Positions 5,269 to 6,541 are shown, numbered from the stretch's first letter. The stretch: DNA of 43,206 nt from an archaeon (GCA_024276825.1 JAJRWI010000026.1:1-43206), one strand, 5' to 3'. A program made the numbers and translations. The notes: a model not told the origin generated them from the sequence alone.

Positions 5269-5850
5269 CTAGAAAATTTCTTCGTCAAACTCTCCAGTTT
5301 TTTTCAGCCGCTCCTTCATCTCAGGAGGGATTATTATATCAGGATCATCGGCTAATGTACGGAGAACATCATCGTGTTCTTCTGGCAATGGGCTCAAATT
5401 CTGAATTGAGCCATCAATTTGGTCAAATATTTCGTTTAGAGCATCTGCAACCGCGAGCGCATCATCCATTGACTTACCCCAAGATTCAATTTTCGCTCTA
5501 ACATCTTTGATTAGCTCGCCAGATTTGATATCTCTTTCAACCTCCAATAAACGAATTCGTCTTTCGTTTTCCAATAGCCGAATATCAGATTCTTGAAGCA
5601 AGATCTTCTGATCAATCTCCTTTTTAGACTGAACATCAAATTTTGAAGGAACAGTTCCTGCAGCAAGCGCCCGATTTATTTTTTCAACCAAGGCTCGCTT
5701 TTCATCAAGTAGTAAATTTAAAGTGTCAGCCGCTGAGAGAAGTTTTTCATGATATTCACGAATCACTTCGTTCTTTTCACGACACTTCTTTACACTCTTT
5801 CTTTCTTTATATTTTTTGCAGTCAATCTCTTTCATTACATGAAACGACAA
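5269..5850 (-). CDS. Coiled-coil protein, possible divergent ESCRT-III/Snf7/PspA-superfamily member
   Basis: 193 aa with a basic N-terminal region, a long helical hairpin (turn at KINRALAAGTVP) and an acidic C-terminal half ending GEFDEEIF. GGGTGAGG SD upstream. The family call is pattern-based; the confidence value refers to it. Confidence 0.55.
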   Translation of the reverse strand: MSFHVMKEIDCKKYKERKSVKKCREKNEVIREYHEKLLSAADTLNLLLDEKRALVEKINRALAAGTVPSKFDVQSKKEIDQKILLQESDIRLLENERRIRLLEVERDIKSGELIKDVRAKIESWGKSMDDALAVADALNEIFDQIDGSIQNLSPLPEEHDDVLRTLADDPDIIIPPEMKERLKKTGEFDEEIF

Positions 5851-5962
5851 GACCTCACCCTCAGTATTGCTTCATTTAATGCTCATCATGATACTATTCA
5901 TTCATGGAGTTGATTTATCCTTCTAAATTGTTCAATATAAATAATACTTTGATTAAGTATGA

Positions 5963-6541
5963 CTATTCAACCGAGATCCAATCCATCTTTTCAAATTCCT
6001 TGAGATATTTCTTGAATAGTCGACTAATATATTCATCACTTGCCTTGGTATGATAATAGTCGATGTTTTCAAGCAAATCCGACTGCAGTTCTTCAATTAA
6101 TTCGTCCAATTGAATTTGATCCATTAGATTCATCTCTTTTATAATGGAGATTAGATTCAAGACCGATTCATGATTAATAGTATCATTTGCAATTATATCA
6201 TTAGTCAGCTCAATAAGTTTGTCAATAAATTGAGAATTTGGAATCATTCTTAACATGCGACGCTTCTTTTCAAGTTCCAGTCGTGACTCTTTCACCAATG
6301 CAAGCACATTATCAATAATTGTCTGCATAATCTTTGCGATTTGAAATTTTCTTAAGTGAATCAAAGCAGGTCTTTGTTTGTTATTCAATGCTCTTCTGAT
6401 TTCGCGCATGTATCTTTGAATTGCAGCTCGTATATCACGTACCATTATCCTAAGATTATCTTCTTGAGTTTGAAGGAGTAGGATATGTTTTTCTATTTCT
6501 TGTCGTTGTTTTCTATCACTCCACCATGTTAGAAATGGCAT
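5963..6541 (-). CDS. Putative ESCRT-III (Snf7/CdvB-like) protein
   Basis: 192 aa with amphipathic N-terminus MPFLTWW, basic helix 1 ending REIRRALNNK, helix 2 QRPALIHLRKFQIAK...LELE, and an acidic C-terminal half. GGAG upstream. Size and charge polarity are typical of ESCRT-III. Confidence 0.6.
   Translation of the reverse strand: MPFLTWWSDRKQRQEIEKHILLLQTQEDNLRIMVRDIRAAIQRYMREIRRALNNKQRPALIHLRKFQIAKIMQTIIDNVLALVKESRLELEKKRRMLRMIPNSQFIDKLIELTNDIIANDTINHESVLNLISIIKEMNLMDQIQLDELIEELQSDLLENIDYYHTKASDEYISRLFKKYLKEFEKMDWISVE

What the first reader, a model, noticed from the sequence alone, without database searches (positions are those of the whole stretch)
5269..6541. Tandem pair of highly divergent ESCRT-III/Snf7-like genes
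Seen: two adjacent proteins of 192 and 193 aa, each with a basic N-terminal helical hairpin and an acidic C-terminal half. They share a similar hairpin turn (REIRRALNNKQRP vs EKINRALAAGTVP), and one has an amphipathic MPFLTWW N-terminus. Known: these are hallmarks of ESCRT-III/CdvB, and Asgard genomes normally encode one Vps2/24/46-like and one Vps20/32/60-like gene near vps4. Inference: this is an additional orphan ESCRT-III pair that may co-polymerise.
Basis: inference. Interest (0 to 1): 0.72.

Follow-up and report, generated by a model that had tools for sequence, protein, structure and literature searches.

The report
ATPase-less remnant of ESCRT-III-like cassette
The two small helical genes are real; one belongs to a rare Asgard-archaeal family that distantly resembles ESCRT-III membrane-remodelling proteins and elsewhere always sits beside its own Vps4-style ATPase, but this genome keeps a stripped-down copy without that ATPase.

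Summary
Both ORFs exist as described: pA (5963-6541, 192 aa) and pB (5269-5850, 193 aa), all-helical, with a basic N-half and an acidic C-half. Neither hits Snf7 or PspA in Pfam, NCBIfam or PDB sequence searches.

pA belongs to a tiny family: 6 representatives in 1.84 billion proteins, found in 10 of 400 Asgard genomes. In all 12 other loci examined, pA lies directly upstream of a dedicated ~400-aa ATPase with an MIT-like N-domain and one AAA domain. That ATPase forms its own clade, separate from Vps4 and CDC48. In this GTDB family the cassette continues with pB, a ~300-aa protein, a ~100-aa protein, an S8 peptidase and a large Zn-ribbon protein.

The window keeps only pA, pB, the N-terminal third of the 300-aa protein, and the Zn-ribbon module, which here is fused to a 1199-aa surface receptor. 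The genome (98% complete) has no cognate ATPase.

A 14-member pA profile matches Asgard Snf7 profiles in register (hhalign 84%, P 8e-6; reversed controls P at least 0.12). Fold searches lean towards ESCRT-III/PspA but are not significant. pB is not distinguishable from noise against Snf7, and is only weakly linked to pA.

Verdict: partly supported. This is a new variant of the archaeal ESCRT-like systems, and the homology evidence is moderate.

The parts
5963..6541 (-). pA: 192-aa helical-hairpin protein. It is the most divergent member of a small Asgard family (13-19% identity to the others, with a shortened C-terminal tail) that resembles ESCRT-III at profile level.
   Evidence: ORF. Family of 6 representatives in 1.84 billion proteins. 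14-member alignment A6. hhalign against Asgard Snf7: 84%, P 8e-6, in register from the N-terminus. Foldseek's top hits are ESCRT-III chains but with E 0.03 or higher.
5851..5962 (.). 112-nt intergenic gap between pA and pB. In every other locus this position holds the ~400-aa MIT-like AAA ATPase gene.
   Evidence: Sequence. Gene maps of 12 other loci. No cognate ATPase anywhere in the genome.
5269..5850 (-). pB: 193-aa helical protein (TTG start; alternative ATG at 5835). Member of a narrower family found only in the S8-peptidase type of the cassette.
   Evidence: ORF. Homologs P0003, P0004 and the G360 copy. Only 3 of 400 phylum genomes hold it. hhalign to the pA family: 29%, P 6e-4, with the turn in register. 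hhalign to Snf7: P 0.009, which is noise level.
4749..5243 (-). pC-N: 164-aa ORF that corresponds to only the N-terminal ~130 residues of the cassette's ~300-aa protein. The strongly conserved C-terminal domain is absent.
   Evidence: BLASTP E 2e-5 to the G017 protein. Alignment A4. Own-genome profile search finds only this fragment.
930..4529 (-). 1199-aa receptor-like protein: PQQ/FG-GAP beta-propeller, TSP3 repeats, a transmembrane helix, then a ~340-aa cytoplasmic module (about 930-1952) ending in a split CxxC...CxxC Zn ribbon. That module is homologous to the C-terminal half of the cassette's large convergent protein.
   Evidence: Pfam domains. BLASTP E 6e-21 over 352 residues to the L015 644-aa protein. 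Weak Zn-ribbon Pfam hits only.

Best explanation
pA is a highly diverged member of a rare, Asgard-restricted family of ESCRT-III-superfamily-like helical-hairpin proteins. Elsewhere, its gene is always the one directly upstream of a dedicated single-domain AAA ATPase with an MIT-like N-terminal three-helix domain. That is the Vps4 architecture, but the ATPase forms a separate clade. pB is a second hairpin protein specific to the S8-peptidase type of the cassette, and may be a distant paralog of pA. The likely ancestral mechanism (inferred, not shown) is this: the basic hairpin proteins assemble on the membrane, the ATPase extracts or remodels them through their conserved acidic C-terminal tail, and the Zn-ribbon module protein links the assembly to cargo or surface receptors. 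The window holds a reduced derivative with pA, pB, a truncated pC and the Zn-ribbon module fused to a giant surface receptor, but no ATPase and no peptidase. Here the two proteins therefore either act as a static or Vps4-served membrane scaffold under that receptor, or are on their way to being lost.
For: The family and cassette were defined by an exhaustive HMMER search, contig look-ups and genome scans. pA-ATPase adjacency holds in 12 of 12 other loci. The ATPase N-domain profile matches MIT domains over their full length: katanin p60 E 0.003, calpain-7 E 0.005, Sulfolobus Vps4-type MIT E 0.015-0.02. TPR hits cover only one helix pair. One locus (L067) pairs pA with an ATPase inside the Vps4 clade. 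hhalign of the pA family against 35 Asgard Snf7 sequences gives 84%, P 8e-6, collinear from the N-terminus and up to 165 columns. It holds without the window's sequence (71%, P 4e-5). One-reversed controls give P 0.12-0.57, and 0 of 180 block-shuffles reach the real score. About 18 of Foldseek's top 30 hits are ESCRT-III chains. The best reciprocal ESM-Atlas shape match is a PspA/IM30 cluster, TM 0.56/0.57. The only Pfam-bearing neighbour in language-model space, for both pA and pB relatives, is a cluster where 16% of members carry Snf7. Charge asymmetry equals that of true Snf7. Makarova et al. 2024 (PMC10936438) describe euryarchaeal ESCRT systems with the same logic: a derived ESCRT-III gene upstream of a Vps4-like ATPase, plus propeller and Zn-ribbon 'adaptin-like' proteins.
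Confidence: 0.55

Rival explanations
1. The cassette is a conflict or defence module of the AAA-ATPase plus subtilase type (like IetAS). In this reading, pA and pB are lineage-specific coiled-coil regulators, adaptors or effectors with no common ancestry with ESCRT-III. The window's copy, lacking both enzymes, is a decaying remnant in a variable genomic region.
For: PADLOC matches the cassette ATPase to IetA (1e-31) and the peptidase to IetS (8e-15) and to a subtilase model (1e-29). Distribution is very patchy: 10 of 400 genomes, and not found in the same-genus genomes searched. The window's left 22 kb has lower GC and no DNA synteny with congeners. A DO-GTPase gene, typical of conflict systems, lies next to the cassette in L019. 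No HMM-level Snf7 signal exists.
Against: The IetA and IetS matches cover only the generic AAA and S8 cores. The S8 peptidase is absent from the variant cassette of another GTDB family, whereas pA plus ATPase is invariant. This reading does not explain the in-register Snf7 profile match or the MIT-like N-domain. A defence role and an ESCRT-III-like fold are also not mutually exclusive.
Confidence: 0.25
2. pA and pB are generic helical-hairpin or coiled-coil proteins that act as substrate adaptors or assembly factors for the AAA unfoldase. Examples would be delivering surface-receptor tails or the Zn-ribbon protein to the ATPase and peptidase. They would have no polymerising or membrane-remodelling activity, and the resemblance to ESCRT-III would be convergent.
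Against: The collinear profile match to Snf7 starts at residue 3 and covers the hairpin tip. It is 2-3 orders of magnitude better than the noise floor. The charge pattern, size and gene order match archaeal ESCRT-III/Vps4 loci.
Confidence: 0.15
3. The two ORFs are not functional genes in this genome. They would be pseudogenised leftovers that merely remain open.
For: They are the most divergent members of their families (13-25% identity), the tail is truncated, the partner enzymes are missing, and pC is cut to a third.
Against: Both frames are fully open at about 190 codons in DNA of 36% GC. Both have ribosome-binding-site-like sequences. Both retain the family-wide turn motif, including the invariant Pro, and the charge asymmetry. 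The Zn-ribbon module downstream is intact and fused to a large, intact receptor gene.
Confidence: 0.05

Closest known systems
Asgard ESCRT-IIIA and ESCRT-IIIB (Snf7 family, PF03357; CHMP1-3 / CHMP4-7 types)
   Same: Size of about 200 aa. Long alpha1-alpha2 hairpin followed by short helices (low-confidence model). Basic N-half and acidic C-half. Short basic or aromatic N-terminal segment. Gly-containing hairpin tip that aligns in register. Gene next to an MIT-type AAA ATPase in relatives.
   Different: No Pfam Snf7 hit at any threshold. Identity to Snf7 in the hhalign match is 12-18%. The genome already has the canonical two Snf7 genes plus Vps4 on other contigs. The family is rare and patchy rather than universal in Asgards. 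The partner ATPase is not a Vps4 ortholog.
Halo_adaptin and Meth_adaptin ESCRT systems of Euryarchaeota (Makarova et al. 2024, PMC10936438)
   Same: A barely recognisable, derived ESCRT-III-like gene directly upstream of a Vps4-like ATPase. Accompanying large proteins carry PQQ/WD40 propellers, beta-sandwich domains and Zn ribbons. Distribution is patchy and lineage-specific.
   Different: Found here in Asgard archaea. The cassette includes an S8 peptidase and the pB, pC and small proteins, which were not described for those systems. An adaptin-appendage fold for the Zn-ribbon module was not tested here. The window's version lacks the ATPase.
PspA / IM30 / Vipp1 (bacterial ESCRT-III superfamily, PF04012)
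   Different: No PF04012 hit. The matches rest on a low-confidence model and are no better than matches to unrelated hairpins.
Vps4 / CdvC (MIT domain plus single AAA domain)
   Same: For the cassette ATPase of relatives: about 400 aa, an N-terminal ~70-residue MIT-like domain, a linker and one AAA domain with a pore loop. It is encoded right after the ESCRT-III-like gene.
   Different: It forms its own clade, apart from Vps4 and from CDC48/PAN (8 of 9 sequences). Its closest solved sequences are AFG2 and p97 D2. It is not present in the window or its genome.
IetAS defence system (AAA ATPase IetA plus S8 protease IetS)
   Same: An AAA ATPase and an apparently intracellular subtilase (no obvious signal peptide in the sequence read) are co-encoded in the full cassette. 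PADLOC models match both.
   Different: The matches cover only the generic catalytic cores. IetAS has no hairpin proteins, no MIT-like domain and no Zn-ribbon protein. The subtilase is dispensable in the variant cassette. Neither enzyme is in the window.

Membership tests
ESCRT-III / Snf7 (PF03357) | Sequence match to the family HMM at or near the curated threshold | tested here: not met
   There is no PF03357 hit for pA or pB at E up to 10. Snf7 is also not among the 25 families most often matched by the 14 pA-family members. The same HMM finds the genome's two true Snf7 genes at 67 and 42 bits.
ESCRT-III / Snf7 (PF03357) | Remote homology detectable by profile-profile comparison | tested here: inconclusive
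   pA family against Asgard Snf7: 84%, P 8e-6, in register, with controls at P 0.12 or higher and 0 of 180 shuffles as high. This is below the usual 95% standard, and it is absent for the window's sequence alone (P 0.012). pB family: P 0.009, at noise level.
ESCRT-III / Snf7 (PF03357) | alpha1-alpha2 hairpin packed by alpha3-alpha5 (the ESCRT-III fold) | tested here: inconclusive
ESCRT-III / Snf7 (PF03357) | Basic N-terminal half and acidic C-terminal half | tested here: met
   Net charge is pA +11/-11 and pB +3/-11. The family ranges are like those of 35 Asgard Snf7 proteins.
ESCRT-III / Snf7 (PF03357) | C-terminal MIT-interacting motif that recruits a Vps4-type ATPase | not testable with these tools
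   The pA family has a strongly conserved acidic tail (EFL...P[DE]...[VI]PEE[IVL]K), but it matches neither MIM1 nor MIM2 by eye, and it is shortened in the window's pA. Binding would need biochemistry.
ESCRT-III / Snf7 (PF03357) | Genomic linkage to a Vps4-family ATPase | tested here: not met
   This is not met for the window: there is no ATPase in the locus, and the genome's Vps4 is on another contig. In the 12 other loci, pA is adjacent to an MIT-like AAA ATPase.
ESCRT-III / Snf7 (PF03357) | Polymerisation on membranes and membrane remodelling | not testable with these tools
   This requires purified protein, liposomes and electron microscopy.
PspA / IM30 (PF04012) | Sequence match to the family HMM | tested here: not met
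   There is no PF04012 hit at E up to 10. The only links are low-confidence shape matches.
Vps4 family (applies to the cassette ATPase of relatives, not to the window) | N-terminal MIT domain | tested here: inconclusive
   The profile of 10 N-domains matches katanin p60, calpain-7 and Sulfolobus Vps4-type MIT domains over the whole domain at E 0.003-0.02. In Pfam, MIT or KATNA1_MIT is hit by 3 of 10 members and TPR_2 by 7 of 10.
Vps4 family (applies to the cassette ATPase of relatives, not to the window) | Placement inside the Vps4 clade of AAA ATPases | tested here: not met
   8 of 9 cassette ATPases form a separate clade (SH-aLRT 100), and only L067 groups with Vps4. The closest PDB sequences are AFG2 and p97 D2. 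The tree is small and unrooted.
Adaptin-type archaeal ESCRT systems (Makarova et al. 2024) | Adaptin-appendage-like (IG plus TBP) protein with a Zn ribbon and/or a PQQ/WD40 propeller in the locus | tested here: inconclusive
   The propeller and Zn ribbon are present in the 1199-aa neighbour, and its cytoplasmic module is shared with the cassette.
IetAS defence system | Co-encoded IetA-type ATPase and IetS-type S8 protease | tested here: not met
   Neither gene is in the window or, as a cassette-type ortholog, in its genome. In relatives, the PADLOC matches cover only the generic cores.

The most novel reading that the evidence does not exclude
Asgard archaea hold, besides the canonical two-subunit ESCRT-III/Vps4 system, a third, undescribed ESCRT-III-like family with its own MIT-AAA ATPase lineage. 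It would be organised in cassettes with a subtilase and receptor-linked Zn-ribbon (possibly adaptin-appendage-like) proteins. That would make it a dedicated receptor- or cargo-coupled membrane-remodelling or sorting device. The window would then show a natural derivative in which the Zn-ribbon module is fused to a giant surface receptor and the dedicated ATPase has been dispensed with.
Probability: 0.35. Interest if true: 0.8.

Novelty: new variant of a known kind. Interest (0 to 1): 0.55.

Why it matters
Current work treats Asgard archaea as having a simple two-component ESCRT-III system (IIIA and IIIB) served by one Vps4. That system is used as the model for how the eukaryotic machinery arose (PMC11804906, PMC7619361, PMC10936438). 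A further, very divergent ESCRT-III-like family with its own Vps4-style ATPase lineage, tied to surface receptors and a protease, would show three things. First, the ESCRT-III/AAA module was repeatedly re-used inside Asgards. Second, there would be an Asgard counterpart to the euryarchaeal 'adaptin-type' systems. Third, the ATPase-less version in this window would be a natural test of what such hairpin proteins do without their remodelling enzyme. If the resemblance is instead convergent, the cassette is still an uncharacterised AAA-plus-subtilase system worth testing as a defence or quality-control module.

Tried and rejected
- **Word-indexed homolog searches** with single pA and pB sequences returned only the proteins themselves.
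- **Pfam, NCBIfam and PADLOC** on pA, pB, pC and their homologs gave nothing meaningful.
- **Family profiles against PDB sequences** found no ESCRT-III or PspA chain.
- **Foldseek with the pB model** returned nothing.
- **VIA-align wide search with the pA model** did not discriminate between ESCRT-III and unrelated hairpins.
- **Bridging test:** single small helical proteins from variant cassettes (L067 167 aa and 202 aa, L066 218 aa) carried too little signal to link pB to pA or Snf7. One reversed control reached P 0.002, which sets the noise floor.
- **Complex prediction** of the ATPase MIT-like domain with the conserved pA tail returned 'no answer' (score 0.02). It counts neither for nor against binding. 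Two earlier attempts failed because the server was busy.
- **First cassette scan of genome contigs** failed because the alignment had no conserved stretch. The retry found only the already known G017 contig.
- **DNA synteny with same-genus genomes** was not found.
- **Adaptin Pfam families** on the Zn-ribbon module: none matched.
- **Rejected idea, remnant of the ATPase gene between pA and pB:** the gap is only 112 nt.
- **Rejected idea, the cassette ATPase is a Vps4 ortholog:** the tree and the PDB ranking say otherwise.

Full report
**Observation.** pA is at 5963-6541 (minus strand, ATG, 192 aa, begins MPFLTWW). pB is at 5269-5850 (minus strand, TTG, 193 aa; an ATG five codons in would give 188 aa). 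Both have purine-rich ribosome-binding-like sequences upstream. They are separated by 112 nt and lie in a co-directional run: a 1881-aa surface protein, pA, pB, a 164-aa ORF (pC-N, 4749-5243) and a 1199-aa protein (930-4529). The quoted turn motifs are present. The charge asymmetry is real (pA +11/-11, pB +3/-11) and of the same size as in true Asgard Snf7 proteins. Single-sequence AlphaFold2 models show a ~50-residue helix, a turn, a ~35-residue helix and four short helices in both proteins, but with pLDDT of only 56 and 59.

**Direct family tests fail.** Neither protein, nor pC-N, hits Snf7, PspA_IM30 or any other Pfam or NCBIfam family, even at E 10. The genome has the usual Asgard complement elsewhere: two genuine Snf7 genes (67 and 42 bits) and a Vps4 next to one of them, on other contigs. 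23 of 25 related genomes have a Snf7 match, and nearly all of those have exactly two. A related contig is labelled Promethearchaeota, that is, Asgard. BLASTP of pA against pB is insignificant and out of register.

**The genes belong to a conserved cassette.**
- Word-indexed searches found only self. Six-frame scans of relatives found one genome (G017) with weak, full-length homologs of both proteins.
- A two-sequence pA profile run exhaustively over 1.84 billion representatives found just six family representatives. A pB profile found two more members.
- Contig look-ups and genome fetches show a conserved gene order: pA (about 200-220 aa), an AAA ATPase (about 390-405 aa), pB (about 180-220 aa), a ~300-aa protein (pC), a ~100-125-aa protein, an S8 peptidase (about 550-570 aa), and a large protein of 644-980 aa that is convergently transcribed downstream in three loci and lies co-directionally upstream of pA in G360.
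- A pA profile finds the family in 10 of 400 Asgard genomes, spread over six GTDB families.
- In another family (four genomes) the cassette differs: there is no peptidase, but there are other small helical proteins, Trp-rich proteins, a membrane protein and Zn-ribbon proteins. The pA-ATPase pair, however, is invariant.
- pB proper occurs in only three of 400 genomes, plus metagenome contigs.

**The window's copy is reduced.**
- It is the only locus without the ATPase. Only 112 nt separate pA and pB.
- pC-N aligns with just the first ~130 residues of pC and lacks its highly conserved C-terminal domain.
- The 98%-complete genome has no cognate ATPase (the best hits are CDC48, PAN and Vps4 at 32-42% identity), no full pC and no cassette-type S8 gene.
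- The last ~340 residues of the 1199-aa neighbour lie after its transmembrane helix. They are homologous (E 6e-21 over 352 residues) to the C-terminal half of the cassette's large convergent protein, including the split Zn ribbon. So four cassette parts survive, one of them fused to a propeller/TSP3 surface receptor.
- Same-genus genomes lack pA and pB, and show no DNA synteny with window 1-14600. That part of the window also has lower GC than the rest.

**Is pA ESCRT-III-like?**
- Against alignments of 35 Snf7 proteins taken from related genomes, the pA family scores better as members are added. Seven sequences give 43% (P 2e-4). Fourteen sequences give 84% (P 8e-6) against all Snf7, and 64-65% against each Snf7 subfamily over 109-165 columns.
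- The alignment starts at residue 3. It puts the family's KW-L/FGKKK N-terminus over the Snf7 GFL-GKK motif, and the YL-QGK-PP turn over the Snf7 hairpin tip.
- One-reversed controls give P 0.12-0.57. None of 180 block-shuffled alignments reaches the real score. The closest come from 28-column blocks, which keep native segments intact.
- The signal survives removal of the window's sequence (71%, P 4e-5), and it is carried mainly by the non-S8-type members (89%). The S8-type subset and the window's pA alone show nothing. The link is therefore transitive.
- HMMER-level tests stay negative: none of 14 members hits PF03357, and the profile finds no ESCRT-III chain in the PDB.
- With the weak pA model, about 18 of Foldseek's top 30 hits are ESCRT-III chains (CHMP1B, Asgard ESCRT-IIIB, CHMP2A/3, CdvB, Shrub, Snf7), but the best E is 0.03. 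A Foldseek-independent search ties them with unrelated hairpins. The best reciprocal ESM-Atlas shape match is a PspA/IM30 cluster at TM 0.56/0.57.
- Language-model neighbours of pA and pB relatives include, as the only Pfam-bearing set, a cluster in which 16% of members carry Snf7.
- I put the chance that pA is a true ESCRT-III-superfamily member at about 0.6.

**pB.** Its family profile against Snf7 (P 0.009) is within the noise seen for reversed controls, which reach P 0.002. That is suggestive of distant paralogy, but it is not established.

**The partner ATPase (in relatives).** It has one AAA domain (Pfam 1e-31) preceded by a ~70-residue helical domain. A profile of that domain matches MIT domains end to end: katanin p60 E 0.003, calpain-7 E 0.005, Sulfolobus Vps4-type E 0.015-0.02. 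TPR matches cover only one helix pair. In sequence it is nearest to AFG2 and p97 D2. In a small tree with this lineage's Vps4, CDC48 and PAN, eight of nine form their own clade, and one sits within Vps4. So the architecture is Vps4-like, but these are not Vps4 orthologs.

**Comparison with the literature.** Makarova et al. 2024 (PMC10936438) report only Vps24- and Vps20-type ESCRT-III in Asgards. They also describe euryarchaeal 'Meth_adaptin' and 'Halo_adaptin' systems with the same logic: a derived ESCRT-III gene upstream of a Vps4-like ATPase, plus adaptin-like proteins with propellers and Zn ribbons. A 2025 review likewise presents Asgards as having a two-paralog system (PMC7619361). I found no description of this cassette, but the paper library is not exhaustive.

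**Alternative.** PADLOC matches the ATPase and the peptidase to the IetA/IetS defence pair. The patchy distribution, and a neighbouring DO-GTPase gene in one locus, fit a conflict system. The matches are to generic cores, and the peptidase is dispensable, so I rank this reading second. It is also compatible with an ESCRT-III-like fold.

**Verdict.** 'Orphan pair' should be replaced by 'ATPase-less remnant of a conserved cassette'. This is a new variant of the known archaeal ESCRT-like systems. The homology evidence is moderate, and the key structural test is still to be done.

Noticed in passing
L061, L063, L064, L065 (four genomes of one other GTDB family): A variant cassette around the pA-ATPase pair. 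Upstream is a 211-219-aa helical protein starting LLFGRKK and ending in EKYGVEE, plus a ~190-aa protein with a WWWFEQG motif. Downstream are a ~390-aa TPR-like protein, a ~220-aa membrane protein, a ~560-aa protein with an N-terminal double CxxC, three more ORFs and a second WWW-type protein. There is no S8 peptidase.
   Followed up: partly
L067:645-4463 (G151): Here the pA homolog is followed by an ATPase that falls inside the Vps4 clade. After that come two further small helical proteins and a pC-like protein. This may be a link between the canonical and the cassette systems.
   Followed up: partly
window 12677-13762 (+): A 361-aa ORF with a weak PCI-domain match (E 0.0017), lying between the two giant surface-protein genes. 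PCI or winged-helix domains recur in archaeal ESCRT loci, according to PMC10936438.
   Followed up: no
window 1-22000 versus 24000-43206: The surface-protein-rich left part has GC of 0.34-0.40, against 0.41-0.46 for the Hdr/Mvh metabolic part. The first 14.6 kb has no DNA-level match in two same-genus genomes, so this looks like a variable region.
   Followed up: partly
L019:931-1782: A DO-GTPase1/2 gene, a type known from conflict systems, lies just upstream of the complete cassette in GCA_054386055.1.
   Followed up: no
pB family C-termini (alignment A8; window 5269-5400): There is a conserved [DE][DE]L..LG motif, and in four of six members the very C-terminus reads [ST]LFE. The window's copy ends EEIF. 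This may be a docking motif for the ATPase or the peptidase.
   Followed up: no
L017:1324-2539: In this metagenome contig the cassette ATPase is split into two ORFs of 181 aa each. The cause is either a frameshift or an assembly error.
   Followed up: no
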